Under the pieces are notes generated by a model, which saw nothing but the letters and a program-made list of their open reading frames with translations, did not search any database and had not been told where the DNA came from. A program made the position numbers and the translations under genes. This document shows, in pieces, positions 4,234 through 32,559 of a stretch of DNA of 39,602 nt. This stretch comes from Alphaproteobacteria bacterium. Lineage in GTDB: Bacteria > Pseudomonadota > Alphaproteobacteria > Sphingomonadales > Sphingomonadaceae. Positions within the stretch are counted from its first letter, which is position 1, and every line of letters begins with the position of its first letter. The stretch spans positions 1-39,602 of the forward strand of contig JAHJWA010000245.1 in NCBI GenBank assembly GCA_018828205.1, written 5' to 3'.

Positions 4234-4235
4234 GT

Positions 4236-9915: not shown

Positions 9916-10425
9916 CTAGTCGTAAACGACTGCCCAACCGCGCAGTTGCAAATTCGTAAGCGTCGTGAGCGCCGAGGCATCTATCCGCACGTTTGGCGCG
10001 AGATCGTCGGCGTTCAACTGCGCACGGTGCATTGCCTGACTGCAAATCGCTATCGTTACGCCGGCGTCTTGTAGCGCGGCAATCAGCGAGAGATTGGGGT
10101 TATTGGAGATATTCGCAACGATTGGCGTCGCAGGTCCGTGAACCACCGCAACGATGTTGGCCGCCTCTGGAAGGACGCCACCTGATGCAAGCAGGTTCAG
10201 ATAGCGCGCTACCTTTTCGAGCGAGCGATTGACCTCGCCCGGGGGGGCTGCTTCCGTGATGCTGAAGACGACCCTGTAACGCAGATCAGGATCGGGCTGC
10301 TCCGCGGAGCCATCGATCGGCGCAATATTGCCAAAGGATGGCACAGCTACGGCACGCTCCTGCGCATGTGCCGTGGAATACATCAGAATAGTGGCTGTGA
10401 GTCCTAACAGGTAGTGACGAAGCAT
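9916..10425 (-). CDS. Exported DsrE-family protein
   Basis: Signal peptide (TAHA/QE), YRVVFSI, VARYLN, VVHGPA, AICSQA with a single Cys, LQLRGW. Confidence 0.8.
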   Translation of the reverse strand: MLRHYLLGLTATILMYSTAHAQERAVAVPSFGNIAPIDGSAEQPDPDLRYRVVFSITEAAPPGEVNRSLEKVARYLNLLASGGVLPEAANIVAVVHGPATPIVANISNNPNLSLIAALQDAGVTIAICSQAMHRAQLNADDLAPNVRIDASALTTLTNLQLRGWAVVYD

Positions 10426-15795: not shown

Positions 15796-15813
15796 AGTGC
15801 CTCCTTCATTTGG

Positions 15814-15846
15814 AAAAAGCGGGATCGGCGCGAACCGATCCCGCTT
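15814..15846 (-). terminator. Rho-independent terminator-like hairpin after peroxiredoxin
   Basis: AAGCGGGATCGG-TTCGCG-CCGATCCCGCTT followed by TTT on the minus strand. Confidence 0.8.
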
Positions 15847-15871
15847 CTAGAAATTCGATGAGGTATTTCGC

Positions 15872-16501
15872 TCAATCGATTTTTACCGTGCGTAGGTAGG
15901 GCCGAAGGGTGGTGAACCCTTGCGGGAAGCGGGTTTTTGCATCCTCATCGGAAACCGACGGGGGAATGATTGCCTCCTTGCCTTCGCGCCAATCGGCTGG
16001 AGTGGCCACGCCATGCTTGTCGCTGAATTGCAGGGCGTCGATCGCTCGCAGAATTTCGTCGAAATTACGGCCTACGCTCATCGGGTAGGTCATCGTGAGC
16101 CGGATCTTCTTGTTCGGGTCGATGATGAATACTGACCGCACTGCAGCCGTCTCGCTCTGGTCCGGATGGATCATGTCATAGAGTTTTGCGATCTTCAGAT
16201 CGGCATCGGCGACGATCGGGAACACGAGGTTCGTGTTTTGGGTGTCGTTCACGTCCTCGATCCACTTGGCGTGTTCTTCGGCCGTGTCGGTAGAGAGGCC
16301 GAGAGGCTTTACGTTGCGCTTGTCGAACTCGCTGGCGAGCTGGGCGGTGCGGCCCATCTCTGTGGTGCAGACGGGCGTGAAGTCGGCCGGGTGACTGAAG
16401 AAGAATACCCAGCTGTCGCCAGCCCAATCGTGCAGGCTGATCTCACCATTCTGGGTGTCGACGGTAAAGTCCGGGGCGGTATCACCAATGTGCAGGCTCA
16501 T
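15872..16501 (-). CDS. 1-Cys peroxiredoxin (Prx6 family)
   Basis: FSHPADFTPVCTTE, YPMSVGRNFDEILR, TPADW, YLR tail. Confidence 0.95.
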   Translation of the reverse strand: MSLHIGDTAPDFTVDTQNGEISLHDWAGDSWVFFFSHPADFTPVCTTEMGRTAQLASEFDKRNVKPLGLSTDTAEEHAKWIEDVNDTQNTNLVFPIVADADLKIAKLYDMIHPDQSETAAVRSVFIIDPNKKIRLTMTYPMSVGRNFDEILRAIDALQFSDKHGVATPADWREGKEAIIPPSVSDEDAKTRFPQGFTTLRPYLRTVKID

Positions 16502-16695: not shown

Positions 16696-16818
16696 TCAAA
16701 CTTTCAGCCAGAACCTGATTATGTAAGCGACCAGGCCCAGCACAGTTACACTGGCTAACCAGATCGCGGCCATCCAACCGAGCCGCTGCCAAAGCGGAAT
16801 ATCTTGGGAATCACCCAT
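16696..16818 (-). CDS. DUF2474-type small membrane protein (cytochrome bd accessory subunit)
   Basis: MGDSQDIPLWQRLGWMAAIWLASVTVLGLVAYIIRFWLKV; TGATG overlap with cydB. Confidence 0.8.
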   Translation of the reverse strand: MGDSQDIPLWQRLGWMAAIWLASVTVLGLVAYIIRFWLKV

Positions 16819-17825
16819 CAGTGATATCCTTCGTCTGCCACTTTGCCGCGGAAAACCCAGTAGGCCCATGCAGTGTAGGCAATGATGAGCGGCATAGTGA
16901 TTGCCACGCCCACCAACATGAATATCTGGCTGCGTTCGGGTGCGGCGGCGTCCCAGATCGTAAGACCCGGCGGCACGACGTAAGGCCACATTGTGACCCC
17001 TAGGCCAGCCATGCCAAAGAAGAAGAGCGCGATGCTGAGCCAGAACGGCTTGCTGTGCCTGTCCACAGAGAGAGCTCTCAGCAGCGCAATGGCGATCACA
17101 GCGGTGAGAATGGGAACCGGCGCTGCGAAGTAGATTTCCGGTGCAGTTAGCCAGCGTTCGGCATATTCTGCATTCAAAAACACGTTATAGAGGCTAACAC
17201 CGCCCATCAGGACGAGAGTTGACCAAGCTGCTTTTTTGGCGAGTGAACGCGCATGGTGCTGGCTGTCACCTTCCAGTTTCCAAACGAGCCATGTCGCGCC
17301 GAGCAATGCGTAACCGGCCACCGTGCCTAGACCGGTCAGCAATGTGTAGGGAGTGAACCAGTCGAACCAGCTTCCCGCATAGGATCGGTCGACGACTTCG
17401 ATGCCTTGTAACAGTGCGCCCAGAGTCATGCCCTGCGCCATCGCTGCCACCAGCGAACCGCCGGTAAAAGCCGCATCCCAGTATCGCCGGTGCCCTGGAT
17501 CGCGCCAGCGATATTCGAACGCCACGCCCCGGAACACCAACCCAAGCAGCATGGCGATGATCAGCGGATAAGTGGCCGGAAGGATGACGGCGTAGGCCAG
17601 CGGGAAGGCGGCAAAAAGGCCGCCGCCGCCCAAGACAAGCCAAGTTTCGTTGCCATCCCACACAGGCGCGATCGAGTTCATTGCCCGATCGCGCTCCGGC
17701 CCGACATCGAACGTCGGAAAAAGGATGCCGATGCCAAGGTCGAACCCGTCCATTACCACGTAGGCGAAGACGGCGAAGGCGATGATGAACGCCCAGATCG
17801 TCGTCAGGTCCACGTTAACGTCCAT
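16818..17825 (-). CDS. cydB: Cytochrome bd ubiquinol oxidase subunit II (CioB-type)
   Basis: YVVMDGFDLGIG, PVWDGNETWLV, FRGVAFEYR, YWVFRGKV. Confidence 0.95.
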   Translation of the reverse strand: MDVNVDLTTIWAFIIAFAVFAYVVMDGFDLGIGILFPTFDVGPERDRAMNSIAPVWDGNETWLVLGGGGLFAAFPLAYAVILPATYPLIIAMLLGLVFRGVAFEYRWRDPGHRRYWDAAFTGGSLVAAMAQGMTLGALLQGIEVVDRSYAGSWFDWFTPYTLLTGLGTVAGYALLGATWLVWKLEGDSQHHARSLAKKAAWSTLVLMGGVSLYNVFLNAEYAERWLTAPEIYFAAPVPILTAVIAIALLRALSVDRHSKPFWLSIALFFFGMAGLGVTMWPYVVPPGLTIWDAAAPERSQIFMLVGVAITMPLIIAYTAWAYWVFRGKVADEGYH

Positions 17826-19269
17826 CGGTCGCCTCCTCGTGATCCCGCGGAAGTGTATCGGGATCACCCGGGTTCTGGGACGGGCCTGGCGTGATACCAG
17901 CGGTCCGGATCGGCCCGGTGTCCCCGCGCTTGACGCCGTATTCGCCTGCATGCGGTGGCTTGTGCATGAGGTGCAGGATATACCAGACGCCTGCGCCGAA
18001 GACGACGAAGTAGACGATCACGAAGGCGAGAAGCGAGGCTGCGACTGCAGGAGCATCCAGCGGGCTTGCCGCATCAGCCGTTCGCAGCAGATTATAGATC
18101 ACGTAGGGCTGCCTGCCGACCTCGGTCGTAATCCATCCTGCGAGGACAGCAATGAATCCGCTTGGCGCCATGACCAGTGCGGCCTTGTGCAATAGCGGCC
18201 AGTCGTAGAGTTTCTTACGGAAGCGAGCGAACAAGCTCCAAGCGCCAATACCAAGCATGGCAAAACCGATCCCGACCATGATGCGGAATGACCAGAACAC
18301 GATGCCGACCGGCGGTTCCTCGTCATCAGGAATCGTGTCCAGCCCGGCAAGGGGAGCATTCAGGTCATGCTTGAGAATGAGCGATGACGCCTTGGGTATC
18401 TCAATCGCGTAATCGACTCGCTTCTCCTCGCTGTTCGGGATGCCGAACAGAATCAGTGGCGCTCCATTGGGATGGCTCTCATAATGACCTTCCATCGCCA
18501 TCACCTTTTGAGGCTGGTGCTCGAGCGTATTGAGCCCGTGCATGTCGCCAGCAAAGATCTGGATCGGCGCAACGATGGCCGCCATCCACATCGCCATCGA
18601 GAACATCTTGCGCGCGTGTAGGTTGGTCCGGTCCTTCAGCAGATGCCAGGCACCCACCCCGCCGACAACAAAGGCGGTTGTTAGATAGGCGGCGATGACC
18701 GTGTGGACGAGGCGATAGGGAAAGCTCGGGTTGAACACGATGTCCCACCAACTTTCACCTGGCAGGTATTGCCCGTTCGCGCCGATCTCATATCCAACCG
18801 GTGTCTGCATCCAACTGTTGACCGACAGGATCCAGAAGGCGCTGATGAAGGTGCCGATGGCTACCATGAGCGTCGCCGCGAAGTGCAACTTCTTGCCGAC
18901 TTTGTTCATGCCAAAGAGCATGACGCCGAGGAAGCCCGCTTCGAGGAAGAACGCGGTCAGCACCTCGTAAGCCATGAGCGGGCCGATCACTGGACCAGCT
19001 ATGTCAGAGAATTTCGACCAGTTGGTGCCGAACTGGTAGGACATCACGATGCCGGAAACGACGCCCATCGCGAAGGCGATCGCGAAGATCTTCAGCCAGT
19101 ATTTGAACAGGTCGAGATAAATCGACTTGCCGGTCTTCAGCCACAACCCTTCGAGCACTGCAAGGTAGCTCGCAAGTCCGATGGAAAATGCTGGAAAGAT
19201 GAAGTGAAAGCTTACCGTGAAGGCGAACTGGATGCGAGCAAGCAGAAGGGCGTCTAGCTGTTCGAACAT
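17815..19269 (-). CDS. cydA: Cytochrome bd ubiquinol oxidase subunit I (CioA-type, short Q-loop)
   Basis: ARIQFAFTVSFH, QFGTNW, EVLTAFFLEAGF, NSWMQTP, QPQKVMAMEG, GWITTEVGRQP. Confidence 0.96.
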   Translation of the reverse strand: MFEQLDALLLARIQFAFTVSFHFIFPAFSIGLASYLAVLEGLWLKTGKSIYLDLFKYWLKIFAIAFAMGVVSGIVMSYQFGTNWSKFSDIAGPVIGPLMAYEVLTAFFLEAGFLGVMLFGMNKVGKKLHFAATLMVAIGTFISAFWILSVNSWMQTPVGYEIGANGQYLPGESWWDIVFNPSFPYRLVHTVIAAYLTTAFVVGGVGAWHLLKDRTNLHARKMFSMAMWMAAIVAPIQIFAGDMHGLNTLEHQPQKVMAMEGHYESHPNGAPLILFGIPNSEEKRVDYAIEIPKASSLILKHDLNAPLAGLDTIPDDEEPPVGIVFWSFRIMVGIGFAMLGIGAWSLFARFRKKLYDWPLLHKAALVMAPSGFIAVLAGWITTEVGRQPYVIYNLLRTADAASPLDAPAVAASLLAFVIVYFVVFGAGVWYILHLMHKPPHAGEYGVKRGDTGPIRTAGITPGPSQNPGDPDTLPRDHEEATDGR

Positions 19270-19272
19270 TTT

Positions 19273-19428
19273 TTATCCGTCTTGCTTTTCGGCGCGTGCC
19301 GTGCGCCAGCGGTAAAAGGTCTTTTCAGAGATCCCGATTTCGCGGCAACTCTCGCAAACACCTTTCCCTGCTGCGATCAGAGCTTCGATCTCCCGGCAGC
19401 GCGCCTCCTTGTTAGGAATCGCTGGCAT
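19273..19428 (-). CDS. 51-aa helix-turn-helix microprotein (IS3 OrfA-like HTH) with CxxC
   Basis: Below the ORF-track cutoff. Manual translation: MPAIPNKEARCREIEALIAAGKGVCESCREIGISEKTFYRWRTARAEKQDG. ATG overlaps the sulP stop (TGATG); its stop is 3 nt before the cydA ATG. Confidence 0.72.
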   Translation of the reverse strand: MPAIPNKEARCREIEALIAAGKGVCESCREIGISEKTFYRWRTARAEKQDG

Positions 19429-21236
19429 CAGATCATCCCTCTCGCGGCGTCTGCTATCGGCTCGACAGGCGGACCACCATTAGCAGAGAGCTCCCGGAAG
19501 GCGCGGTTCTGCGATAGAAAGACCTGTCCATTGAGTTCCTCGACGAAATGCGTTCGCTTCAGACGGTCCATGACCGGGCCCTTTACTTCGGACAGGTGAA
19601 GGCCGATGCCCGCATCGATCATCCGGTGATTGATCGCTTCGAGGCTTTCGAGGCCGGAGGCGTCGATCTCGTTGACCGCGCTGCACATCAGGATGAGATG
19701 GCGCACGTCGGGTCGGTCGGCAATTTCCTCCAACACGTATTCCTCCAGCCAGCGCGCGTTGAGGTAGGTCAGGCTCTCATCGATCCGGATCGACAGGACA
19801 TGCGGCACGGTGAAGACCTTGTGCCGATCGACATTGCGAAAATGCTCTGTCTCGGGGACGCGCCCGACGATGGCTGCATGCGGGCGGCTGGCCCGCCACA
19901 GGTAAAGCAGCAAGCCGACGCCCACGCCGGCGATCACGCCCAGTTCGACTCCCGCGAGAAGCGTGATGGCTATCGTCGCCATGTGCGCGGCAAAATCCGC
20001 CTTGGAGTAATTCCAAAGTTGTCCGGGTGTCTTAAGATCAACGAGGCTGAGAACTGCGACGATAATCGTGGCGGCCAAGGTGGCGATGGGCAGGCTGTAT
20101 AGAAGCGGGGTGAGGAACAGGCCGGCAAGTGCGATGCCGACTGCTGTGTAGGCCCCGGCCGCTGGCGTTTCGGCCCCGGCATCGAAATTTACGACCGAGC
20201 GAGCGAAGCCGCCCGTGACGGGGTAGCCACCGGAAAAGGCGCTGGCGATGTTCGATGCGCCGAGGCCAATCAATTCCTGGTTCGGCGCGATCCTCTGCCT
20301 GCGCTTCGCAGCAAGAGTCTGCGCGACCGATACGCTTTCTACAAAGCCGATGATGGAGATGAGCAGTGCCGGAACCCACAACTGCCCAATCAAGCCAAGA
20401 TCGGTGGATGGGAGGGCGAATGGAGGTAGGCCTTGCGGGATTGCGCCTACGAGGTTTACGCCGCGGTCTTCGAGGTCGAGGCCAACTGCCGCCAAGATCG
20501 TCGCGATCACCGCGACGACCGGCCCCGCCTTGGCAGCAATGTCGGCAGCACGCGGTGTCAAGCCCAGTTTGACCAAATTTGGCTTCAAACCCTTGCGCAC
20601 CCAGAACAGGAACAGCGTTGCGGGAATACCGACTGCGAGGGTCCACGGATTGATCGTGTTGATCGTAGAAGCGAGCCCGCCGAGCATTTCGGGCCAATTG
20701 TCGCCACCCGCCGTGACGCCGAGGATGTGCTTCAATTGGCTCGTCGCGATCAGGATGCCACTGGCGGTGATGAACCCACTGATGACCGGATGCGAGAGCA
20801 AGTTAGCGAGGAAGCCCATGCGCAGGAAGCCGAGCAGGGCCAGCATCACGCCGGACAAGGCGGCGAGCGTGATTGCGGCTTCGAGATAAAGCGCGGTGCC
20901 TTGAGCCGCGACCGCTCCGGCTGCGCTTGCCGTCATCAGCGACACCACTGCCACGGGCCCCACCGCGAGGGTGCGGCTGGTGCCGAAGATCGCATAGGCA
21001 ACCAGCGGCAGTATCGATGCGTAGAGGCCCACCACCGGCGGCAGCCCCGCCAGCAGCGCATAGGCGAGGCTCTGCGGGATCAGCATGATCGTTACGATGA
21101 TCGCCGCGACGAGATCGTTCGTAAGGACCGAACCGTTATAGGTCCGGCCCCATTCGAGGATTGGCAGGTATTGCGCCACCAGTCCGAGCTTGTGCCTGCG
21201 CGGCAAGCCAGACGCTTCTGGATTGCTCTCGCTCAC
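19428..21236 (-). CDS. sulP: SulP/SLC26 inorganic anion transporter with STAS domain
   Basis: LIPQSLAYALLAG, GLYAS, FGTSRTLAVGP, NQELIGLG, GGFARS, C-terminal STAS; GTG start inferred 2 nt after the sqr stop. Confidence 0.93.
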   Translation of the reverse strand: MSESNPEASGLPRRHKLGLVAQYLPILEWGRTYNGSVLTNDLVAAIIVTIMLIPQSLAYALLAGLPPVVGLYASILPLVAYAIFGTSRTLAVGPVAVVSLMTASAAGAVAAQGTALYLEAAITLAALSGVMLALLGFLRMGFLANLLSHPVISGFITASGILIATSQLKHILGVTAGGDNWPEMLGGLASTINTINPWTLAVGIPATLFLFWVRKGLKPNLVKLGLTPRAADIAAKAGPVVAVIATILAAVGLDLEDRGVNLVGAIPQGLPPFALPSTDLGLIGQLWVPALLISIIGFVESVSVAQTLAAKRRQRIAPNQELIGLGASNIASAFSGGYPVTGGFARSVVNFDAGAETPAAGAYTAVGIALAGLFLTPLLYSLPIATLAATIIVAVLSLVDLKTPGQLWNYSKADFAAHMATIAITLLAGVELGVIAGVGVGLLLYLWRASRPHAAIVGRVPETEHFRNVDRHKVFTVPHVLSIRIDESLTYLNARWLEEYVLEEIADRPDVRHLILMCSAVNEIDASGLESLEAINHRMIDAGIGLHLSEVKGPVMDRLKRTHFVEELNGQVFLSQNRAFRELSANGGPPVEPIADAARGMI

Positions 21237-21238
21237 GA

Positions 21239-22471
21239 TCAGGCAGCTTTCTTCATTTGCGGTTTGGCCAGCCACTCATGGCCCTTGAGCATGCCGTTCC
21301 AGTAGACCCAGGGCAGAGCTTCCGATTTCAGTAGCCAGCTGAGCCGTCGCGGTCGCGTGCCGTCGATAACCCATTTCGGGAAGCTCGGGAGAAGCTTTCC
21401 GTCATATCCGAACTCGGCCAACACAATCTTTCCGCGTTCGACGGTCAGCGGGCATGAGCCGTAGCCGTCGTAGTCGGCCCAAGGCTGCTTTGCATCGAGC
21501 TGGGCGAGCGCATTGACTGCAACGATCGGGGCCTGCTTACGCGCAGCGGCCATCGTCTTGGCATTGGGTGTGGAACCGGCATCGCCGATGCCGAAAACGT
21601 TCGGATAACGAACGTGCTGGAGCGTGAACTTGTCGATATCGACAAAGCCGCTTTCGGCGTTGGCGAGCGGGCTGTCGGCAACGAATTGCGGTGCAACCTG
21701 CGGCGGCACTGCGTGAAGCATGTCGAATTCGACAGTCTCCTCACCGGCTTCGGTCTTGAAGACGGCCTTTTTGCTGGGGCCGTCAACCGCGACGAGCGTC
21801 TGGTTGAGTTTGAGGTCGATTCCGTATTTCTCGACATACTCCATTAGCGCCGGGACGTATTCCTTCACCCCGAACAGGACGCCACCGGCATTGCGGAATT
21901 CAACGTCAATATCGTCGAGCACACCGCGTTCCATCCAGGCATCGCATGAAAGATACATCGCTTTCTGCGGCGCACCTGCGCACTTGATGGGCATCGGCGG
22001 CTGGCTGAAGATCGCGCGGCCCGATTTCAGGTTGCGCACGAGGTCCCATGTGTAGGGCGCCAGATCGTAGCGGTAGTTGGAGGTAACACCGTTCTTGCCG
22101 AGCGTTTCCTCCAGACCGTCAATCTTTTCCCAGGCAAGCCGGATGCCCGGAGCGACGATCAGAAGGCGGTAGGTAATTGTCGCGCCGTCGCTGAGCGTGA
22201 CCTGATTGTTTTCGGGCTGGAAAGACGCGGCGGACTGTTTCAACCAGGTCGCCTGTTTCGGCATCACGCTCGCCGTGGTGCGCCTAGTGGCTGGCGCTTC
22301 GAAGACGCCTCCGCCGACCATCGTCCAGCCAGGCTGATAATAGTGATCCTCGCTCGGCTCGACGATCGCGATATCGAGCGATGGGCGCCGCTTCAGCATG
22401 GAAGATGCGGTTGCAATTCCTGCCGAACCTCCGCCGATGATGACGACTTCATGATTTAGGCTTCGGGCCAT
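21239..22471 (-). CDS. sqr: Sulfide:quinone oxidoreductase (type II-like)
   Basis: FAD motif IIGGGSAG, HYYQPGWTMVGGG, catalytic Cys pair KCAGAPQK and YGSCP, AEFGY. Confidence 0.92.
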   Translation of the reverse strand: MARSLNHEVVIIGGGSAGIATASSMLKRRPSLDIAIVEPSEDHYYQPGWTMVGGGVFEAPATRRTTASVMPKQATWLKQSAASFQPENNQVTLSDGATITYRLLIVAPGIRLAWEKIDGLEETLGKNGVTSNYRYDLAPYTWDLVRNLKSGRAIFSQPPMPIKCAGAPQKAMYLSCDAWMERGVLDDIDVEFRNAGGVLFGVKEYVPALMEYVEKYGIDLKLNQTLVAVDGPSKKAVFKTEAGEETVEFDMLHAVPPQVAPQFVADSPLANAESGFVDIDKFTLQHVRYPNVFGIGDAGSTPNAKTMAAARKQAPIVAVNALAQLDAKQPWADYDGYGSCPLTVERGKIVLAEFGYDGKLLPSFPKWVIDGTRPRRLSWLLKSEALPWVYWNGMLKGHEWLAKPQMKKAA

Positions 22472-22495: not shown

Positions 22496-22909
22496 TTATT
22501 CGCCAAGCCGGTCGCGCAAACCGGACAAATCGTAGCCTGCTCGCTCGGCGCGTTCGATGCGCGCGTCGGCGGTTTCATTCTCGACGTTGGCGAGTGCATC
22601 GAGCGTAATGGAGCGCGTCCCGGTCCGGCAAAAGGCAAGCACCTTGCCATCCGCTTCTTCGCGGACCGTGGCGAAGGCCTTGATCGCAACCTGCGGAAAT
22701 TCGCCACCCGAGACCGGGATATGATGGAAGGCCAACCCAACCGCTTCGGCTGCTTCTCGCATTGATGCGACGGTGGGCTGGTTCGGCTCTTCGCCATCCG
22801 GCCTGTTGCAAATTACTGTGCCAAACCCACCATCGGCCAGTTCAGCCAGATCGCCGGGTTCAAGCTGTTGGGAGACGGCGAAAGTGTCGCTTACCTGTGT
22901 AAGCTTCAT
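22496..22909 (-). CDS. TIGR01244/DUF442 sulfurtransferase
   Basis: VICNRPDGEE, HHIPV, AFCRTGTRS active-site loop; ATGA overlap with upstream gene. Confidence 0.9.
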   Translation of the reverse strand: MKLTQVSDTFAVSQQLEPGDLAELADGGFGTVICNRPDGEEPNQPTVASMREAAEAVGLAFHHIPVSGGEFPQVAIKAFATVREEADGKVLAFCRTGTRSITLDALANVENETADARIERAERAGYDLSGLRDRLGE

Positions 22910-23325
22910 GACGATGCTCCTTCCATAAGTCGGACAACAGCCATGCCAGCGAGCATTGCGACGACGAATATCGCGGCAGATGCAGGTTCGATTACAAGCG
23001 CAGCGATGCCCGGTCCCGGACAGAGTCCGGCGATTCCCCAGCCGATACCGAACAGAGCCGCGCCGCCCACCAGGCGTGGCGTGAGATCGGATTTGGTCGG
23101 GAGGTGGAATTCTTTCGCAGCGAAGGGCTCGGCCATCCGCGGGACCAGTCGCCAAGCAACCGCCATCACAATGACGGCACCGCCCATGACAAATGCAAGC
23201 GTCGGATCCCAGTCGCCAAACACGTCAAGGAAACCGCGCACGCGCGCCGGATCGGTCATGCCACCGAGGGCAAGGCCCGCCCCGAACAGAGTTCCGGTGA
23301 CCAAAGAGATAAAGGCGGTCCGCAT
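22906..23325 (-). CDS. YeeE/YedE-family sulfur-compound transporter subunit (PmpB-like)
   Basis: GMTDPARVRGFLD, WDPTLAFVMGGA, FGIGWGIAGLCPGP. Confidence 0.9.
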   Translation of the reverse strand: MRTAFISLVTGTLFGAGLALGGMTDPARVRGFLDVFGDWDPTLAFVMGGAVIVMAVAWRLVPRMAEPFAAKEFHLPTKSDLTPRLVGGAALFGIGWGIAGLCPGPGIAALVIEPASAAIFVVAMLAGMAVVRLMEGASS

Positions 23326-23771
23326 CACAGCACCTCCAGCCCGAGCGCATTCATGATCGCGACCGTGGCAATGCCGGTAGCCATGAACGTGAGCGTGGCG
23401 ACGATCGAGCGGCCGGAAAGGCGGCTCACGCCGCAAACCCCATGCCCGCTGGTGCAGCCGCTGCCGAGACGTGTCCCGATGCCCACCACCAGTCCAGCAA
23501 TCGCAAGCGTAACCGGGTTTGCGAAGGTGGCATCAATTCCACCCGATGCCAGCATTACGATCAGCGCACCCAGAGGCAGGCCGATGACGAACATCCATGC
23601 GCCGCCCCTTGCAATGCCGCTGCCGCCGAGCCCGACTGCCTTCGCAGCAAGGCCGGAAACACCAGCGATCCTGCCAAGGCCGAGCAGCATGACCGCTGCG
23701 GCAAGGCCGATAAGCACTCCGCCAGCCAGTCCGGCGAGGGGTGCGGCTTCAGGAAAACCAGGCAACGTCAT
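23325..23771 (-). CDS. YeeE/YedE-family sulfur-compound transporter subunit (PmpA-like)
   Basis: GGVLIGLAA, GRIAGVSG, GTRLGSGCTSGHGVCG, RSIVATLTFM. Confidence 0.9.
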   Translation of the reverse strand: MTLPGFPEAAPLAGLAGGVLIGLAAAVMLLGLGRIAGVSGLAAKAVGLGGSGIARGGAWMFVIGLPLGALIVMLASGGIDATFANPVTLAIAGLVVGIGTRLGSGCTSGHGVCGVSRLSGRSIVATLTFMATGIATVAIMNALGLEVL

Positions 23772-24697
23772 ACGGCGTTGACCGGAATCTTGATGTAGCT
23801 GACGCCATTCTCTTCCGGGTCCGGCAGTCGCCCACCACGGATGTTCACCTGCACCGAAGGCATTATCAGCTTGGGCATCGAGAGCGTCCTGTCGCGGTCG
23901 GTTCGCATCGCGACGAAGTCCTCTTCGGTCACGCCATCCTTCACATGCACGTTTTCCTCGCGCTGCTGTTTGACGGTGGTCTCCCAGGCATATTCGTCGC
24001 GGCCCGGCGCCTTGTAGTCGTGACATAGGAAGAGCCGGGTCTCGTCCGGGAGCGACAGCAGCCGGCGTATCGAGCGGAACAGTTGTCCTGCGTCGCCGCC
24101 GGGGAAATCTGCGCGTGCGGTGCCGAAATCGGGCATGAAGATCGTGTCGCCGACGAAGGCCGCGTCGCCGATGATGAAAGCCATGTCGGCGGGAGTGTGA
24201 CCGGGCACATGGAGGGCGATACCTTCGAGCTCGCCGACCTTGAAGGTCTCACCATCCTCGAACAGCTTGTCGAACTGCGATCCGTCGCGTTCGAAGTCGG
24301 TGCCCGCATTGAAGAGTTTCCCGAAGACTTCCTGCACGCGGATGATATCGCGGCCGATAGCCAACTTCCCGCCAAGCCGCTCCTGAAGATAAGGGGCGGC
24401 AGATATGTGATCGGCGTGGGCGTGGGTCTCAATAAGCCATATCACTTTCAGGTTATTCGAGGTGACATACTCAATGATGCGGTCTGCTGAGCCATTCGAG
24501 GTCCGGCCGGAAGCCGCCTCGAAGTCCAACACCGAGTCGATGATCGCCGCTTCATCCGTCTTGGGGTCGTGGACGACATAGGAGACGGTATTCGTCGCTT
24601 CGTCGAAAAATCCCGCAATCGAGGGGCGCAGGCATTTGTCGGCCTGGGCACGTTCGATCTGAGAAGCGGCATTCTTGAGGTTCTGATCGTCAGCCAT
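23768..24697 (-). CDS. pdo: Persulfide dioxygenase (type II, Blh/SdoA/ETHE1-like MBL fold)
   Basis: ETHAHADH, PGHTPAD, GDTIFMPDFGTARADFPGG, LCHDY, PKLIMPSVQVN; start MADDQ has a GGAGA RBS (alternative start 24715). Confidence 0.92.
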   Translation of the reverse strand: MADDQNLKNAASQIERAQADKCLRPSIAGFFDEATNTVSYVVHDPKTDEAAIIDSVLDFEAASGRTSNGSADRIIEYVTSNNLKVIWLIETHAHADHISAAPYLQERLGGKLAIGRDIIRVQEVFGKLFNAGTDFERDGSQFDKLFEDGETFKVGELEGIALHVPGHTPADMAFIIGDAAFVGDTIFMPDFGTARADFPGGDAGQLFRSIRRLLSLPDETRLFLCHDYKAPGRDEYAWETTVKQQREENVHVKDGVTEEDFVAMRTDRDRTLSMPKLIMPSVQVNIRGGRLPDPEENGVSYIKIPVNAV

Positions 24698-24717
24698 AGC
24701 TTGATCTCCATTCATTT

Positions 24718-24755
24718 ACATAAATCGTTTATATGTGTTGCTATTGATCTGTCAA
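24718..24755 (-). promoter_or_regulatory. Sigma70-like promoter of the pdo operon overlapped by an AT-rich ArsR-type palindrome
   Basis: Minus strand TTGACA (24755-24750)-N16-TATAAA (24733-24728); imperfect inverted repeat ACATAAA-TCG-TTTATAT at 24718-24734. Confidence 0.65.
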
Positions 24756-24771
24756 GTGGTATGAAGGTCGG

Positions 24772-25440
24772 ATGACACAGATGATCAAAGCTGATGCCGA
24801 ACGAGAGGCACCCTGCGCAGGACTACGTATCGGAGATGTAGCTCCGGACTTTTCTGCGCGAAGCACGACAGGAGATGTCCGCCTTTCGGATCACCGGGGG
24901 CGGTGGTTGATCCTGTTCTCGCACCCGGCCGATTTCACGCCCGTTTGCACGACCGAGTTCGTGGCCCTGGCTGAGTCAGCAGGCGAGTTTGAGCAGCGCG
25001 ATTGCGCGCTGATGGCGCTCTCTGTCGATAGCCTGTTCTCGCATTTCGCCTGGCTGCGACTGATCCGCGATCGCTACGATATCGAGGTGCGTTTTCCGAT
25101 TGTGGAGGACCCCACGCTCGTAATCGGCCGCGCTTATGGGATGGTCGCGCCGAACGATAACGACAGCGCGACAGTGCGGACGACATTCTTCATCGACCCC
25201 GAGGGGGTGATCCGTGCGATGACCTGCTATCCTGCCAATGTCGGTCGCTCGACGCCTGAAATGCTACGGACTCTCGACGCGCTTCAGGCAGTAGACAATG
25301 GCCCCGTATTGGCACCTGCCAACTGGAAGCCGGGCGAGGCATTGCTGGCTCAGCCCGATGCTTCGCTCGACACCGTATTTTCCGCAAAAGGCCAGACCGA
25401 CTGGTTCATGAAGGAAACCAAGCGAGGGTCGAAGAGATGA
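24772..25440 (+). CDS. Peroxiredoxin (second Prx6-family paralogue)
   Basis: LFSHPADFTPVCTTE, TVRTTFFIDP, YPANVGRS, PANW. Confidence 0.92.
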   Translation: MTQMIKADAEREAPCAGLRIGDVAPDFSARSTTGDVRLSDHRGRWLILFSHPADFTPVCTTEFVALAESAGEFEQRDCALMALSVDSLFSHFAWLRLIRDRYDIEVRFPIVEDPTLVIGRAYGMVAPNDNDSATVRTTFFIDPEGVIRAMTCYPANVGRSTPEMLRTLDALQAVDNGPVLAPANWKPGEALLAQPDASLDTVFSAKGQTDWFMKETKRGSKR

Positions 25441-25799
25441 CCGACGAAGATTTGGTCGATGCCTTGAAGGCTCTCGCGCACCCCGTGCGTTTGCGGATCA
25501 TGAAGGCGCTTTCCGGCACGGAACGCAATGTCGGAGAGATCGACGACGCAGCCGAGATCGGCCAGCCGACGCTTTCGCAGCAGCTAGCGGTCCTTCGCAA
25601 TGCGGGCCTCGTTAAGACCCGGAAGGATGCCAAGCTCGTCTATTACCGGATAGATGATGACAGGCTTGCGAAGGTTGTTGATGCGGCAGGAGATCTCGGC
25701 GGATTGGCCGTTAGACCCACGCGCCATCCGCGCCAGCCCGCACCTGGGGTGGCTAATTTTGCCAAGCTTGAAGGTCTATATCCGCTTGATGGGCGATAG
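25437..25799 (+). CDS. ArsR/SmtB-family transcriptional regulator (BigR/SqrR-like scaffold, no cysteine)
   Basis: LKALAHPVRLRI, ERNVGEI, QPTLSQQLAVLRNAGLV, VYYR; ATGA overlap with Prx. Confidence 0.92.
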   Translation: MTDEDLVDALKALAHPVRLRIMKALSGTERNVGEIDDAAEIGQPTLSQQLAVLRNAGLVKTRKDAKLVYYRIDDDRLAKVVDAAGDLGGLAVRPTRHPRQPAPGVANFAKLEGLYPLDGR

Positions 25800-25955: not shown

Positions 25956-26876
25956 CTAGAGCGTCTCGCAGCGTAGCGCCTCAAGGCGCTCCGAACATAT
26001 CTCGTGAACGACGCGGCCGAGTTCTTCGACCTGCCTGCCCAGCCATTCGAGTTCTTCCTTCGTGATCCGGTAGTGCTTTGAGTAGCGTGCCTTGACGTAG
26101 GCTTCCTTGAGCTTCTCGAAGCGAGCGCGGTCGCGCTTCGTGTCGCGTGGCCAGATATAGGTCAGGCGCGGATCGATGCGCTCGGCTTGTGTGCGCAGGA
26201 ATCCGAGGTTGTGATTATGCGGTGTGTAGAAGGTACAAACCAGCAAGACGCTGTGATACAGACTCTCGACTGCCTGATGAAACTCGAACGCAGCGTGTTT
26301 ATTCATTCCTTCCTGTATCGCGTATAGAGCAAGCTTCACTCTGCCCTGGGCAGCTGGCATCCACTCGGCGAAATATTCCTGCGCCATCGCCAGCGCTTGT
26401 TCGGGCGTCTTGGGCTTGGGCTGGTGGAGTTCAGTGTCATCGCACTGGTAGAGCGCGATCCCGTCCTTGGCGATATCCATGAAGAAGTAGCGCCCATGCG
26501 CCAGGCCATCGTTCACTTCCTGCAGCGTATGGACGATGAAATTGACAGGCGTCCGCAGCGCACCGGTGATCGCCAGTTCCCGGTCGAGCCGCTCCTCGAG
26601 CTTGAGCCAATAGGCCACGCGATCGGCGATCCGCTTGTCGTTGACAATGATGAGCAGATCGTAGTCCGACTGGTAGCCCTTGGCGGTGTGGGGCTCGTCG
26701 ACCCATCCCCCACGCGCGTAGCTGCCATAGAGGATGATCTTGAGGATCCGGGCCTTCTTCTTCCACTCGTGTTTGGCAAGCGCCAGCGCATCGCCGAATT
26801 CGTCGAACACAATCTCGACGACGCGTTCCAGTTCGCGCTGCTTGGTGGGAGGAAGATGATCGAGATCGGTGCGCAT
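25956..26876 (-). CDS. Nucleotidyltransferase (MNT)-HEPN fusion protein
   Basis: ILYGSYARG...SDYDLLIIV (MNT) and AAFEFHQAVE...HNL...YVKARYSKHY (HEPN); start MRTDLDHLP. Confidence 0.88.
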   Translation of the reverse strand: MRTDLDHLPPTKQRELERVVEIVFDEFGDALALAKHEWKKKARILKIILYGSYARGGWVDEPHTAKGYQSDYDLLIIVNDKRIADRVAYWLKLEERLDRELAITGALRTPVNFIVHTLQEVNDGLAHGRYFFMDIAKDGIALYQCDDTELHQPKPKTPEQALAMAQEYFAEWMPAAQGRVKLALYAIQEGMNKHAAFEFHQAVESLYHSVLLVCTFYTPHNHNLGFLRTQAERIDPRLTYIWPRDTKRDRARFEKLKEAYVKARYSKHYRITKEELEWLGRQVEELGRVVHEICSERLEALRCETL

Positions 26877-27054
26877 TGATTCATCCTTAGCAAGCTGCTG
26901 GAATGGTTGCACCCTTACAATACTGCACGGTGCGATGACCGGCTCCAACAAGCGCCCTCTGCTCTTCGAAACCCGCCGAGCGGGAACTTCAAACGGCGCG
27001 GCCGACGAGAACTTCGCCAAGCCGCTACCGATCTTTCCTGTCCCGAGATCGTCT

Positions 27055-27486
27055 TCAGCCATGGTCCTCACCAAGCTCGCCCACCCGTATCAGATCGTCC
27101 GCCAGATGCGTATCGCGCTCCATGTGCCGGGCAAGCGCCTCGACAAAATTCTCGAACCGCTTCTCGACGCCTGCCCGGACCGCAGCCGAAGGCTGGCTTG
27201 CAGGCGGCGGCGTGGCGGCGAGCCATGTCCGAAGATACAGCGCGAAGGCTTCGTTGCCGACTTCCACATGATAATCGAGCTTCTGCAATTGCCGCGTGAT
27301 CCGGTCGAGGCGCCGGCTGAATGCGGCCTCCATCCGCTCGGATCCGTCAGGCGAAAGAAACGAGGCGATCGCCGCTTCAACCACCGATGCCTGCGATACC
27401 CGCTTGCGACCCGCATAGTCGGCCAGCTGCCGCGACAGGTCGGGCGGGAGCCGGAAGGTGTGCTTGATCCGGTTGCCCTTTCTCAC
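27055..27486 (-). CDS. CopG/ribbon-helix-helix protein of the traG operon
   Basis: HTFRLPPDL...VVEAAIASFLSPDGSERMEAAFSRRLDR; GTGA overlap with the traG stop; usual position in these ICEs. Confidence 0.85.
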   Translation of the reverse strand: MRKGNRIKHTFRLPPDLSRQLADYAGRKRVSQASVVEAAIASFLSPDGSERMEAAFSRRLDRITRQLQKLDYHVEVGNEAFALYLRTWLAATPPPASQPSAAVRAGVEKRFENFVEALARHMERDTHLADDLIRVGELGEDHG

Positions 27487-29480
27487 AGATCGATCCCATC
27501 GCCGGGATCGAGCGCGGCCCGCCGCGCATTGGCGCGCATCCGGTCCGTAATCTGCCTGTTTCTGACGGCATCGTCGTCATCCCGCCGATCGGTGAAATCA
27601 AACTCGTTGGGAGGCGGTGACCGGGGCGGCAACACGTCCTCGTGTTCCGGCAAGTCGGGCTCACGGCGAATGCCGCCCTCGCCCGCGGTGTCTAATGCTT
27701 CCTCCTCTTCCGGGACCACCACCGCCGCAGGATCGGGCCGGACATTCGGCGAGGCGATTACATCGCCCCAGTCGTCGCTCCGGGTGCTGTTGCCCGATTG
27801 CTTCACGACAGGTGGCCGATCGATCCGCGTCTTCAGTCTCGGATCGGCATAATAGCGCGCCTTCTTCGCGCGGATCGGATGAGCACCTGCGAGCATGACG
27901 ATCTCGTCGGTATCGGGCAGCTGCATGATCTCGCCCTGGGTGAGCAGAGCCCGGGCGGTTTCGGTCCGGGATACCATCAGGTGCCCGAGCCAGGGCGACA
28001 GGCGGTGCCCGGCATAATTCTTCATCGCGCGCAGCTCGGTGGCCGTGCCGAGCGACTCCGAGATGCGCTTGGCGGTGCGTTCGTCGTTGGTGGCGAAGCA
28101 GACGCGGACATGACAATTGTCGAGGATGGCATTGTTCTGTCCGTAGGCCTTTTCGATCTGGTTGAGCGATTGCGCGATCAGGAACGCCTTGATGCCGTAG
28201 CCCGCCATGAAGGCGAGCGCGCTTTCAAAGAAGTCGAGGCGGCCCAGCGCCGGAAACTCGTCGAGCATCAGGAGCAGGCGCCGGCGATCCGATCCTTCCT
28301 CGAGGTCTTCCGTGAGGCGGCGCCCCAGCTGGTTGAGGATCAGGCGAACGAGCGGTTTGGTCCGGCTGATGTCCGAGGGCGGAACGACGAGGTAAAGCGT
28401 CGCCGGGCGCTTCGGATCGACGAGGTCGGCAATGCGCCAGTCGCACTGCCGCGTAACACTGGCGATCACGGGGTCGCGGTACAGGCCTAGGAACGACATG
28501 GCGGTCGAGAGCACGCCAGAGCGTTCGTTCTCCGATTTGTTGAGCAGTTCGCGCGCGGCGCTCGCCACGACCGGATGAACGCCGTCCTCGCCCAGATGCG
28601 GCGTCTGCATCATCGCGGCGAGTGTCGCCTCGATCGACCGCTTCGGATCAGAAAGGAAGGACGCGACACCTGCGAGCGTCTTGTCCTCTTCGGCATAGAG
28701 AACGTGGAGGATCGCGCCGACCAGTAGCGCATGGCTGGTCTTTTCCCAGTGGTTGCGCCGCTCGAGCGAGCCTTCGGGATCGACCAGCACGTCGGCGATG
28801 TTCTGCACGTCGCGCACTTCGCCGACGCCGCGCCGCACTTCCATCAACGGGTTAAAGGCGGCCGAGGCCGCGTTGGTCGGATCGAACAGGAGGACGCGGC
28901 TGAACTTGGCGCGAAAACCAGCGGTCAGTTCCCAGTTCTCGCCCTTGATGTCGTGAACGACCGCCGAGTGGGGCCAGGTCAGCAGTGTCGGCACGACGAG
29001 GCCGACGCCCTTGCCGCTGCGCGTCGGCGCGAAGCACAGCACATGTTCGGGCCCGTCGTGACGCAAGTAGAGATTGGCGCACTGGCCGATCACCACGCCC
29101 TTGCCAGCGAGGAGGCCGGCATCGGCGATGTCGGAGCGCGTTGCCCAGCGCGCCGAGCCGTAGGTCGCGCTGTTGCGTTGTTCACGGGCGCGCCACACCG
29201 ACATGGTGATCGCGACCACCACCGAGATCAGCCCGCCCGACGCTGCGATCATGCCGCCGGTCTCGAATATGCGCGGGGCATAGGCCTCGTAGCTGAACCA
29301 CCACCAGAAGATCGCATAGGGCGGGTAGACCGGCATGCCGAAAGCGGTGAACCAGGCCCGGCCAAGCTCGGTCTGATATCCAAGCTCGGCAGCTGTCCAT
29401 TGCGTAGCGGCCCAGATGCCGCCCAGCGTCAGGGTGAACACGGCGAGGATCTGGCCCCACAGGATTCTGGTTGCCGACAT
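27483..29480 (-). CDS. traG: Type IV coupling protein TraG/VirD4
   Basis: MSATRILWGQ, YGSARWA, Walker A APTRSGKG, Walker B LMLDEFPALG, AQSLNQ. Confidence 0.96.
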   Translation of the reverse strand: MSATRILWGQILAVFTLTLGGIWAATQWTAAELGYQTELGRAWFTAFGMPVYPPYAIFWWWFSYEAYAPRIFETGGMIAASGGLISVVVAITMSVWRAREQRNSATYGSARWATRSDIADAGLLAGKGVVIGQCANLYLRHDGPEHVLCFAPTRSGKGVGLVVPTLLTWPHSAVVHDIKGENWELTAGFRAKFSRVLLFDPTNAASAAFNPLMEVRRGVGEVRDVQNIADVLVDPEGSLERRNHWEKTSHALLVGAILHVLYAEEDKTLAGVASFLSDPKRSIEATLAAMMQTPHLGEDGVHPVVASAARELLNKSENERSGVLSTAMSFLGLYRDPVIASVTRQCDWRIADLVDPKRPATLYLVVPPSDISRTKPLVRLILNQLGRRLTEDLEEGSDRRRLLLMLDEFPALGRLDFFESALAFMAGYGIKAFLIAQSLNQIEKAYGQNNAILDNCHVRVCFATNDERTAKRISESLGTATELRAMKNYAGHRLSPWLGHLMVSRTETARALLTQGEIMQLPDTDEIVMLAGAHPIRAKKARYYADPRLKTRIDRPPVVKQSGNSTRSDDWGDVIASPNVRPDPAAVVVPEEEEALDTAGEGGIRREPDLPEHEDVLPPRSPPPNEFDFTDRRDDDDAVRNRQITDRMRANARRAALDPGDGIDL

Positions 29481-29578
29481 GCTGTCTCCTTTGCAGGAGG
29501 CAGCAGGCCGAACGGGAACGTCATTTCAAGCGCGGTGCCGGGCGAATCGCGGTCTGGCGCAGGCAAAGAAGCGGGCGG

Positions 29579-30295
29579 CTAGAGAGCCTCGCAAGCGAAC
29601 GCGGGTTCCCCGGACCATGTCAGACGGTACATGTTTCCTTGGGCGACAGACTGCACGACATTGGGCCACAGGGCGGCGATGCAGGTTCCGTCCGCATGGC
29701 GGACCGAGGGATAGATGATCCCGTTATGCCCTTCGCCGCGCGCCTGGGCCGCAAGAGCATTGCCCGCCGGATAGCCCTTCGCCGTATCGTGCTCAAGGCC
29801 GGGATGATCGGGAAGACCGCGCAGATCGACGAACACGCCCGACATGCTGGCGATCATCTCGCCATATTCGACGACGGCATGTAAATCGCCCGCATCGGCC
29901 AGGGCTCTCGTCAGGTGATGGCCCACTTCGGCAATGCAGGTTTCCACCGCCAGGGCGGCGTACCAGGCACCGCGATTTGCGGGATTGAAACGGCCCGGCT
30001 CGCGCGGTTTGGCATAGGCGAAGCTCGCATTGATGAAACGGGCATGGGGCACGCCGTGAACCAGCTCATCGGCGGTCAACGCCCCAAGCCCGCGTTCCTC
30101 GGCAATCAGCCGCCCGCTGGTCGCGCCCTCGACCTCGGCCAGAAGGACAAGATCGTCATCATCGTCGGCCAAGGGTGCCATGACCGCTGCGCGCAGCCGC
30201 GCGCTCGGCACAAGCCTGATGGTCCGCTCGAAGGCCTCGCGGATCGTCGGAAGGTCGGCGAGAGGCCGGTTTGCCGGCTCCTCAGAGCCCGCCAC
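29579..30295 (-). CDS. RES-domain toxin (NAD+ phosphorylase, MbcT/ParT-like)
   Basis: R (RLVPSAR), GRFN, GAWYAA, E (AEVGHH), S (GIIYPSVRH); lies downstream of the antitoxin. Confidence 0.87.
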   Translation of the reverse strand: MAGSEEPANRPLADLPTIREAFERTIRLVPSARLRAAVMAPLADDDDDLVLLAEVEGATSGRLIAEERGLGALTADELVHGVPHARFINASFAYAKPREPGRFNPANRGAWYAALAVETCIAEVGHHLTRALADAGDLHAVVEYGEMIASMSGVFVDLRGLPDHPGLEHDTAKGYPAGNALAAQARGEGHNGIIYPSVRHADGTCIAALWPNVVQSVAQGNMYRLTWSGEPAFACEAL

Positions 30296-30713
30296 GAAGC
30301 GCGTCGATATACTGCCGGGTTTCCAGCATGCGCGGGATGCCGCCGGCGATCATCGCCTGCACCGGGGAAAGCCGGTCGAACACCGGCGCTGTGTTCGCCA
30401 GCTTCGGCCAGCGATCCGCCATGTCGTCGGCGAACAGGAGATGCAGCCCCTTGAACAGGCCGATCAGCGCCGAGGCGCGGGTCAGCTGGTCTTGGCTGAG
30501 CGTGCCTTCCCATGTTCCCGCTTTCATCCGGTCCCACGTGCTCTCGGAGACACCGAGCAATGCCGCGCCTTCCGCATTGCTGCCGTCCCAGGCATCGACG
30601 AGCCGAAGCACGGCCTTTACCGCGGCGCCGGTCAGGCGGCGACGATCGTCATCGGCGGCAAAGGTCTGCAGTCCGCGCCGGGCTTCGACTTGCTGAAAAG
30701 CTGCACTGGCCAT
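30282..30713 (-). CDS. Xre/MbcA/ParS-type antitoxin
   Basis: HTH (AALLGVSESTWDRMK), LSQDQLTRAS, C-terminal WPKLANTAPVF...SPVQAMIAGG...RQYIDALRGG. Confidence 0.87.
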   Translation of the reverse strand: MASAAFQQVEARRGLQTFAADDDRRRLTGAAVKAVLRLVDAWDGSNAEGAALLGVSESTWDRMKAGTWEGTLSQDQLTRASALIGLFKGLHLLFADDMADRWPKLANTAPVFDRLSPVQAMIAGGIPRMLETRQYIDALRGGL

Positions 30714-30724
30714 ATCGCATCTCC

Positions 30725-30761
30725 TGATGCGTTTATATGCATCACATGGTGTCATTGTCAA
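30725..30761 (-). promoter_or_regulatory. Toxin-antitoxin promoter with autoregulatory palindrome
   Basis: TTGACA (30761-30756)-N18-TATAAA on the minus strand; TGATGC-N8-GCATCA (30725-30744) straddles the -10. Confidence 0.7.
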
Positions 30762-30785
30762 GGTTTGTCTTATTGGGACCTATCC

Positions 30786-32528: not shown

Positions 32529-32559
32529 GGATGGCAGATCCGGGCGACGGCGCATTTGC

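What the first reader, a model, noticed from the sequence alone, without database searches (positions are those of the whole stretch)
24700..25799. Peroxiredoxin plus cysteine-free ArsR: candidate two-protein sulfide/peroxide sensing relay
Seen: the obvious regulator of the pdo-sqr operon has no Cys in 120 aa, carries an extra C-terminal tail (...PAPGVANFAKL...), and is coupled by ATGA to a divergent Prx6 paralogue. That Prx has three Cys besides the peroxidatic one (APCAG, RDCAL, MTCYP) and lacks the YLR tail of the other Prx. A palindrome overlaps the pdo -10. Known: persulfide sensors of such operons (BigR, SqrR, CstR, FisR) use their own Cys. Inference: sensing is outsourced to the Prx, whose redox state would control the repressor by binding, perhaps via the tail. 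I know of no described bacterial Prx-ArsR relay.
Basis: partly seen in the sequence, partly recalled or inferred. Interest (0 to 1): 0.85.

Follow-up and report, generated by a model that had tools for sequence, protein, structure and literature searches.

The report
Peroxiredoxin-paired, cysteine-free sulfide repressor
A sulfide-detox gene cluster in a marine bacterium sits beside a repressor that has lost the cysteines such sensors normally use and instead carries a short tail found only when a dedicated peroxiredoxin gene lies next door, so the enzyme likely does the sensing for it, a kind of relay I did not find described in bacteria.

Summary
The ArsR is BigR-like but Cys-free: 114 of 121 closest sequences have no Cys. 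Its tail is a variable linker ending in a short motif, [GS]-x-A-x-F-A-[RK]-[LIV]. The motif was in 109 of 110 ArsRs that have this peroxiredoxin directly upstream (the 110th has a variant) and in 0 of 54 that lack it. Four independent lineage contrasts all agree (p 0.125, underpowered). The partner Prxs form one clade of AhpC2/ApPrx-type Prx6 with an intact active site. All 110 lack a short C-terminal G-[FYH]-x-x-x segment that 7 of 7 solo relatives keep. A TACA-N7-TGTA box (80 of 110 loci) overlaps the pdo -10. Best model (inferred, about 0.5): the tail docks on the Prx, and the Prx persulfide, formed from peroxide plus sulfide, releases the repressor. All evidence is comparative; no experiment on this pair was found.

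The parts
24772..25440 (+). Dedicated Prx6-type peroxiredoxin (PRK13189, AhpC2/ApPrx branch), 222 aa; His51, Cys59 and Arg136 invariant; lacks the G-[FYH]-x-x-x segment before the terminal W211-F212
25437..25799 (+). BigR-like ArsR/SmtB repressor, 120 aa, no cysteine; start overlaps the Prx stop (ATGA)
25698..25745 (+). Variable linker (residues 88-103) after the last helix; predicted disordered
25746..25769 (+). Conserved tail motif G104-V-A-N-F-A-K-L111 (F108 invariant in 110 of 110); candidate Prx-docking peptide
24717..24731 (.). Candidate operator TACA-N7-TGTA (one mismatch here), overlapping the predicted pdo -10 and just upstream of the predicted prx -35
24728..24755 (-). Predicted pdo promoter: -35 TTGACA at 24755-24750, 16-nt spacer, -10 TATAAA at 24733-24728
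   Evidence: read from the sequence; GTCAA present in 83 of 110 upstream regions, used as anchor
24738..24765 (+). Predicted prx-arsR promoter: -35 TTGCTA, extended -10 TGG-TATGAA; start codon 7 nt further on, so likely leaderless
   Evidence: read from the sequence; one RNA contig begins at 24773 (weak)
23768..24697 (-). pdo, persulfide dioxygenase (Blh SDO-domain homologue); first gene of the divergent operon
22496..23771 (-). YeeE-type sulfur transporter, DUF6691 protein and DUF442 (Blh sulfurtransferase-like) protein
21239..22471 (-). sqr, sulfide:quinone oxidoreductase homologue (below the cut-off of the best NCBIfam model)
19428..21275 (-). sulP sulfate permease (start codon uncertain)
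16818..19269 (-). cydA and the following ORF, taken to be cydB (cytochrome bd oxidase)
15872..16501 (-). Second, YLR-type 1-Cys Prx6; outside the partner clade

Best explanation
A cysteine-free BigR-like repressor and a dedicated Prx6-type peroxiredoxin are encoded as an overlapping gene pair opposite the pdo-sqr sulfide-detox operon, and the peroxiredoxin likely senses sulfide for the repressor by binding its conserved C-terminal tail. Shown here: the gene pair, the clade-wide Cys loss, the tail motif tracking the Prx, an intact Prx6 active site, and a conserved palindrome over the predicted pdo -10. Inferred steps: (1) the ArsR dimer binds TACA-N7-TGTA and represses both divergent promoters; (2) the tail F-A-K-L docks as a strand on the Prx C-terminal domain, where solo relatives have their own G-[FYH]-x-x-x segment and all partner Prxs lack it; (3) H2O2 turns Cys59 into sulfenic acid, and HS- converts that to a long-lived persulfide, so the Prx reports peroxide and sulfide together; (4) the modified Prx pulls the tethered repressor off DNA. 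In relatives whose ArsR keeps cysteines the same tether would hand the sulfur to them; in this clade release would be purely by binding. My estimates: tail function depends on the Prx 0.8, direct docking 0.65, Prx state controls repression 0.5.
For: Tail motif in 109 of 110 Prx-adjacent ArsRs (variant in the last) and in 0 of 24 plus 0 of 30 without the Prx. Paired ArsRs are not one clade (AU p 1e-5), and 4 of 4 independent starred contrasts change tail and Prx together. One contrast is a same-genus pair at the same pdo-divergent site, L144 with both and L122 with neither. Motif codons vary freely at synonymous sites, so selection is on the peptide. Linker length varies widely while F108 is invariant, as for a tethered docking motif; the tail is predicted unstructured in the monomer. 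Partner Prxs are one side of a branch (93/58) and coexist with solo or YLR Prx6 genes in the same locus (window; L088). In 151 family genomes 36 of 41 Prx hits lie directly upstream of an ArsR hit, 2 are cut by contig ends, and 3 are solo-type. 0 of 110 partner Prxs keep G-[FYH] before W[FY]; 7 of 7 solo ones do, and Aquifex AhpC2 and ApPrx have the same aromatic segment. His51 is in 110 of 110; the equivalent His is required for the >1e8 per M per s reaction of oxidised Prx6 with HS-, whose persulfide resists Trx, Grx and GSH (PMC12697902). In the same family 27 of 30 canonical two-Cys BigR loci sit next to pdo with no Prx, so the pair occupies the same regulatory slot. Operator in 80 of 110 upstream regions against 4.1 in shuffles.
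Against: All evidence is comparative; the literature searches found no experiment on this pair. Four contrasts cannot reach significance (p 0.125), and an earlier, larger quick tree gave only 2 (p 0.5). The genes travel together on mobile DNA, so linkage alone could explain co-occurrence of the genes, though less easily the tail. In R. capsulatus, deleting an SqrR-regulated peroxiredoxin did not change sulfide induction (PMC9995734); that SqrR has its own cysteines and I did not check the Prx class. This genome also has a canonical two-Cys bigR-pdo locus. The strand-complementation idea failed a side test: of Prxs paired with a different winged-helix protein, some lack the segment and at least three keep it. 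The HS- kinetics were measured on Plasmodium and human enzymes. Support for the partner-Prx branch is moderate (93/58).
Confidence: 0.5

Rival explanations
1. The tail does engage the Prx, but not to pass a redox signal. The Prx is a constant co-repressor, scaffold or shield against proteolysis (the tail being a degradation signal that the Prx masks), or the tail tunes the Prx's enzyme activity.
For: Explains the tail-Prx coupling and the translational overlap equally well. The tail is short, hydrophobic and usually within 4 residues of the C-terminus (73 of 110).
Against: The Prx active site (His51, Cys59, Arg136) is invariant in all 110. A Cys-free repressor still needs an inducer route. The motif lies 7 or more residues from the end in 17 of 110, which fits a C-terminal degron poorly.
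Confidence: 0.2
2. No relay. The Prx is simply a sulfide/peroxide-detox enzyme in the repressor's own operon. The repressor senses a small molecule without cysteines or is a fixed dampener, and the tail serves self-assembly or another partner. Co-occurrence reflects joint transfer of a cassette.
For: The cluster is cargo between conjugation genes. Peroxiredoxins are known members of sulfide regulons and RSS-detox enzymes (PMC9995734; PMC9426444 abstract). Some ArsRs lack inducer sites altogether (PMC10509353).
Against: The tail is absent whenever the Prx is absent, in separate lineages (L024, L122, L196), and present on full two-Cys BigRs only when the Prx is there. Other genes of the cassette vary around the pair.
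Confidence: 0.2
3. The pdo operon is induced by another sensor in trans, such as the canonical two-Cys BigR on contig C365, perhaps through heterodimers; the Cys-free ArsR is secondary.
For: A two-Cys bigR-pdo operon exists in this assembly.
Against: It has its own palindrome and a different recognition helix. Only 1 of the 11 closest relatives with the pair had a second BigR hit with that query at E <= 1e-12. Other sensor families (FisR, OxyR, CstR) were not searched.
Confidence: 0.1

Closest known systems
BigR (Xylella, Agrobacterium) and SqrR (Rhodobacter capsulatus), ArsR-family persulfide sensors
   Same: Nearest solved sequences (BigR 3pqj, E 9e-18); same QPTLSQQL recognition helix as BigR; same context next to pdo/blh, with a site over the -10 region (PMC5823870).
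   Different: Lacks both sensing cysteines; scores 81 bits against the 155 cut-off of the BigR model; adds a linker plus tail motif and a coupled Prx gene.
PRK13189-type Prx6: Aquifex AhpC2 (5ovq), Aeropyrum ApPrx
   Same: Passes PRK13189; best sequence and fold match is 5ovq; His-P-x-x-F-T-x-x-Cys active site intact.
   Different: Own branch; about 4 residues shorter before the terminal W-F, without the aromatic segment and without ApPrx's C207 and C213; nearly always directly upstream of the tailed ArsR.
Thiol-peroxidase relays to transcription factors: Gpx3/Orp1-Yap1, Tpx1-Pap1, Prx2-STAT3 (recalled, not from a call)
   Same: A peroxidase acts as the primary sensor for a transcription factor.
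   Different: Those are eukaryotic and pass oxidation by disulfide exchange to cysteines of the factor. Here the receiver has no cysteine, and the likely signal includes sulfide.
Prx6 as H2S sensor (Lang et al. 2025, PMC12697902)
   Same: Proposes that Prx6-type enzymes could act as H2S sensors integrating H2O2 and may need a partner; requires the active-site His that is invariant here.
   Different: The passages read name no transcriptional receiver; the work is on Plasmodium and human enzymes.
RexT (Nostoc) and other ArsR redox sensors; NolR-like ArsRs without inducer site (NolR's property recalled)
   Same: Same fold; redox-linked regulons.
   Different: RexT senses H2O2 through its own cysteines (PMC10509353); no coupled Prx or tail motif is known to me for these.

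Membership tests
ArsR/SmtB family | Winged helix-turn-helix core | tested here: met
   Pfam HTH_5 52 bits, NCBIfam NF033788 89 bits against cut-off 55; AF2 model
BigR/SqrR persulfide sensors | Cysteine pair in helices alpha2 and alpha5 | tested here: not met
   No Cys in P0002; 57 of 76 in its clade have none
BigR/SqrR persulfide sensors | Score above the BigR equivalog cut-off | tested here: not met
   81 bits against 155
BigR/SqrR persulfide sensors | Adjacent to pdo/blh, with a palindrome over the -10 region | tested here: met
   the -10 is a prediction from sequence
BigR/SqrR persulfide sensors | DNA binding lost on sulfide or persulfide treatment | not testable with these tools
   needs EMSA or a reporter
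Prx6 subfamily, PRK13189 (AhpC2/ApPrx) branch | FTPVCTTE motif, active-site His eight residues before Cp, catalytic Arg, model cut-off | tested here: met
Prx6 subfamily, PRK13189 (AhpC2/ApPrx) branch | C-terminal G-[FYH]-x-x-x-[DE]-W segment, with the C207/C213 cysteines of ApPrx | tested here: not met
   0 of 110 partner Prxs keep the aromatic segment; 23 of 110 have a W-F-C cysteine, one residue before ApPrx C213
Prx6 subfamily, YLR type | C-terminal YLR motif | tested here: not met
   P0001 ends DWFMKETKRGSKR; the YLR enzyme of the window lies on a long separate branch
Peroxidase-to-transcription-factor redox relays (Yap1, Pap1, STAT3 type; recalled) | Receiver cysteine forming a mixed disulfide with the peroxidase | tested here: not met
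   The receiver has no Cys; could hold for relatives with Cys
Peroxidase-to-transcription-factor redox relays (Yap1, Pap1, STAT3 type; recalled) | Induction of the regulon depends on the peroxidase's catalytic cysteine | not testable with these tools
   needs genetics

The most novel reading that the evidence does not exclude
Alphaproteobacteria have a two-protein sulfide sensor in which a dedicated Prx6 is the receptor: it records H2O2 plus HS- as a trapped persulfide, is tethered to a BigR-type repressor by a tail that completes the enzyme's own missing C-terminal strand, and in one large clade switches a repressor with no cysteine at all purely by binding. The relatives with two, one or no ArsR cysteines would record the move from sulfur transfer to allostery.
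Probability: 0.3. Interest if true: 0.9.

Novelty: new variant of a known kind. Interest (0 to 1): 0.7.

Why it matters
The ArsR-family persulfide sensors described in the papers read here react through their own cysteine pair. A Cys-free member with a coupled Prx would be a different wiring, and a bacterial counterpart of peroxidase relays known from yeast and animals. It would also supply a physiological receiver for the recently reported very fast Prx6-HS- reaction, which bears on the long-open question of what reduces Prx6 and what its persulfide is for. The pair is common (Prx hits in 39 of 151 family genomes) and present in cultured strains, and the key test is a small set of point mutants.

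Tried and rejected
Complex prediction (two Prx copies, residues 12-218, plus one ArsR, residues 1-112, each with a 110-row alignment) returned 'no answer', score 0.02 against a mark of 0.32, controls not folded; it is neither support nor evidence against. Inter-protein covariation was uninformative (effective depth 77, scattered pairs). A search for longer, fused forms found one unrelated ArsR-methyltransferase and no Prx-ArsR fusion, which is weak evidence. The Atlas gave only generic ArsR clusters. Earlier scan findings: none by sequence or words. Rejected: strain-specific Cys loss; a DNA-level reason for the tail motif; extra Prx cysteines as relay markers; the Prx as a decayed YLR paralogue. 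The hoped-for parallel with Prxs paired to M-x-C-L-N-P-D-G winged-helix proteins did not hold cleanly. RNA contigs cannot give levels or strands; the gap over the intergenic region is only a weak hint. Nine literature searches showed no description of a Prx-ArsR pair of this kind; the library lacks most subscription papers.

Full report
Observation. The window holds a 222-aa peroxiredoxin (24772-25440, +) whose stop overlaps the start of a 120-aa ArsR (25437-25799, +) with no cysteine. On the other strand run pdo, a YeeE-type and a DUF6691 membrane protein, a DUF442 protein, sqr, sulP and cydAB, then a second Prx6 with the YLR end. The whole cluster lies between a TrbB-like ATPase (1367-2401) and a coupling protein and relaxase (27483-32555), so it is probably cargo of an integrative conjugative element. 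The closest named relatives are Erythrobacteraceae and other Sphingomonadales.

The repressor. Its nearest solved relative is BigR, and the recognition helix is the same, but it scores well below the BigR model (81 against 155 bits). BigR senses sulfide through Cys42 and Cys108 (PMC5823870, passages), and the persulfide-sensing ArsR cluster is defined by that alpha2/alpha5 pair (PMC10509353, passages). Of the query and its 120 best homologues, 114 have no Cys and 7 have one. In the 76-row clade that holds the window protein (SH-aLRT 99), 57 have none and the rest have scattered ones. The loss is therefore old and tolerated.

The tail. After the last helix (74-87) the AF2 model is unstructured, pLDDT 55-61. 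Across 110 distinct ArsR-Prx pairs (selected by Prx adjacency, duplicates removed, one truncated and one repeated locus left out) the linker is variable in sequence and length, but it ends in [GS]-x-A-x-F-A-[RK]-[LIVM]: F108 110 of 110, A106 107, A109 104. Codons of these residues vary freely at synonymous sites. The motif was found in 109 of 110 paired ArsRs, with a G-V-F-A-R-T variant in the last, and in 0 of 24 ArsRs without the Prx. It was also absent from all 30 canonical two-Cys BigR loci fetched from the same family, 27 of which sit next to pdo. On a tree built without the tail, paired ArsRs are not one clade (AU p 1e-5), and 4 of 4 independent starred contrasts gain or lose tail and Prx together (p 0.125; 50 rows chosen by me). 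The larger quick tree gave 2 such contrasts (p 0.5). Three cases are telling: L144 (Prx, tail, both BigR cysteines) against L122 (same genus, same position opposite pdo, neither), and L024 and L196, which lie inside paired clades and lack both.

The peroxiredoxin. It belongs to PRK13189, nearest Aquifex AhpC2 by sequence and fold. His51, Cys59 and Arg136 are invariant. In 151 family genomes there were 41 hits: 36 directly upstream of an ArsR hit, 2 cut by contig ends and 3 solo-type; one further tailed ArsR had a frameshifted Prx upstream (L190). In 401 genomes of the class there were 18 hits in 16 genomes; the paired ones outside the family include two-Cys BigR types. Partner Prxs form one side of a branch with moderate support (93/58). 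Solo relatives end in G-[FYH]-x-x-x-[DE]-W (7 of 7), aligned with GYECADWY of AhpC2 and YRCLDWWFC of ApPrx; 0 of 110 partner Prxs keep that aromatic, and 76 of 110 are four residues shorter there. The tail's F-A-K-L matches that segment's aromatic-x-x-aliphatic register, which suggests docking by strand completion. That is a pattern match only, and a side test weakened it: Prxs paired with another winged-helix protein sometimes keep the segment. The extra cysteines are not diagnostic: C15 34 of 110, C152 69 of 110, and C78 is shared with 7 of 10 Prxs that have no ArsR partner. In one clade an ArsR cysteine at position 80 goes with a Prx W-F-C cysteine (22 of 23), and in another ArsR C85 goes with Prx C210 (6 of 8); each is one lineage, so these are hints, not tests.

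The operator. TACA-N7-TGTA with at most one mismatch lies upstream of the Prx in 80 of 110 loci (55 exact), against a mean of 4.1 in 15 dinucleotide shuffles; other spacings scored lower (43 at 9, 27 at 5, 11 or fewer otherwise). Here it is at 24717-24731, over a predicted pdo -10 (TATAAA, 16 nt from TTGACA) and just upstream of the predicted prx -35. The prx start follows an extended -10 by 7 nt, so the message is likely leaderless. The two-Cys BigR-type pairs mostly lack this box. RNA contigs from four studies end at 24654-24719 on the pdo side, the nearest on the prx side begins at 24773, and contigs in all four cross the prx-arsR junction; this is a weak hint, since contigs show neither strand nor level and 25 shorter pieces were not shown.

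How it would work. Oxidised Prx6-type enzymes react with HS- at over 1e8 per M per s, need the active-site His to do so, and give a persulfide that Trx, Grx and GSH do not reduce; the authors suggest they may be H2S sensors that integrate H2O2 and may need a partner (PMC12697902, abstract and passages). A BigR without cysteines should stay on DNA, since the reduced form is the bound one, so it needs outside help to be released. I therefore commit to the model that the persulfidated Prx, held by the tail, releases the repressor; translational coupling would keep the two near equal in amount. In Sphingopyxis granuli TFA a gene annotated as BigR (SGRAN_0623) and the adjacent ahpC (0624) both rise 5-fold in anoxia, with divergent trxC, ahpC2 and blh2 rising 4- to 9-fold (PMC6472365, passages, supplement search and part 16 of 105 of supplementary file 2). 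I match these to the pair by gene order only, the matching ArsR in another strain of that species has one Cys, and most neighbouring genes rose too, so this shows co-induction and no more.

Against. No experiment on this pair turned up in nine searches, which also means I found no prior description; most subscription papers are not in the library. Deleting an SqrR-regulated peroxiredoxin in R. capsulatus left induction unchanged (PMC9995734, passages). Peroxiredoxins can simply detoxify sulfane sulfur (PMC9426444, abstract). This assembly (93% complete, 4% contamination) also has a canonical bigR-pdo operon with its own palindrome, though only 1 of 11 close relatives showed a second BigR with that query. 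Other sensor families were not searched.

Verdict. A real, widespread and apparently undescribed module: a dedicated Prx6 plus a BigR-like repressor with a Prx-linked tail, Cys-free in one large clade. It works like a BigR switch by context but fails BigR's defining cysteine test. The relay is the best explanation at about 0.5. New variant of a known kind; interest 0.7.

Noticed in passing
L155:2113-2379, L156:2109-2369, L201-L210: A second partner type for the same Prx subfamily: an 80-90 aa protein with an invariant N-terminal M-x-C-[LIV]-N-x-D-G and a winged-helix-like core, no confident Pfam hit, directly downstream of the Prx in 10 of 11 metagenome loci. Its cysteine could resolve or receive from the Prx.
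   Followed up: partly
window 1367-2401 and 27055-32555: The sulfide cluster, a restriction-modification pair, dsbD and a two-component system lie between TrbB-like, coupling-protein and relaxase genes, i.e. about 24 kb of cargo in a conjugative element.
   Followed up: partly
G000:C365:1-1000 (L159): A second, canonical two-Cys bigR-pdo operon in the same assembly, with a perfect palindrome TTTAGGATATCCTAAA upstream of bigR.
   Followed up: partly
window 14443-16501 (-): The YLR-type Prx6 and a metallo-beta-lactamase/rhodanese fusion follow cydAB, extending the sulfur-handling cluster; a DsrE-family gene lies at 9916-10425.
   Followed up: no
window 25956-27074 (-): A fused nucleotidyltransferase-HEPN protein converges on the arsR 3' end.
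   Followed up: no
window 29579-30761 (-): An Xre-like antitoxin and RES-domain toxin pair between the relaxase and coupling-protein genes.
   Followed up: no
window 3367-6049 (-): Eco29kI-type endonuclease and C5 DNA methylase, with an upstream ORF that looks like a Vsr-type nuclease (by eye, not scanned).
   Followed up: no
L088:5923-8360: A solo AhpC2-type Prx, a thioredoxin and the partner Prx-ArsR pair sit side by side between pdo and cydDC-cydAB in a Sphingobium genome.
   Followed up: partly
L024:657-1004, L195: A tail-less, Prx-less ArsR of a paired clade now sits opposite a molybdopterin oxidoreductase and upstream of a cytochrome c-like ORF.
   Followed up: no
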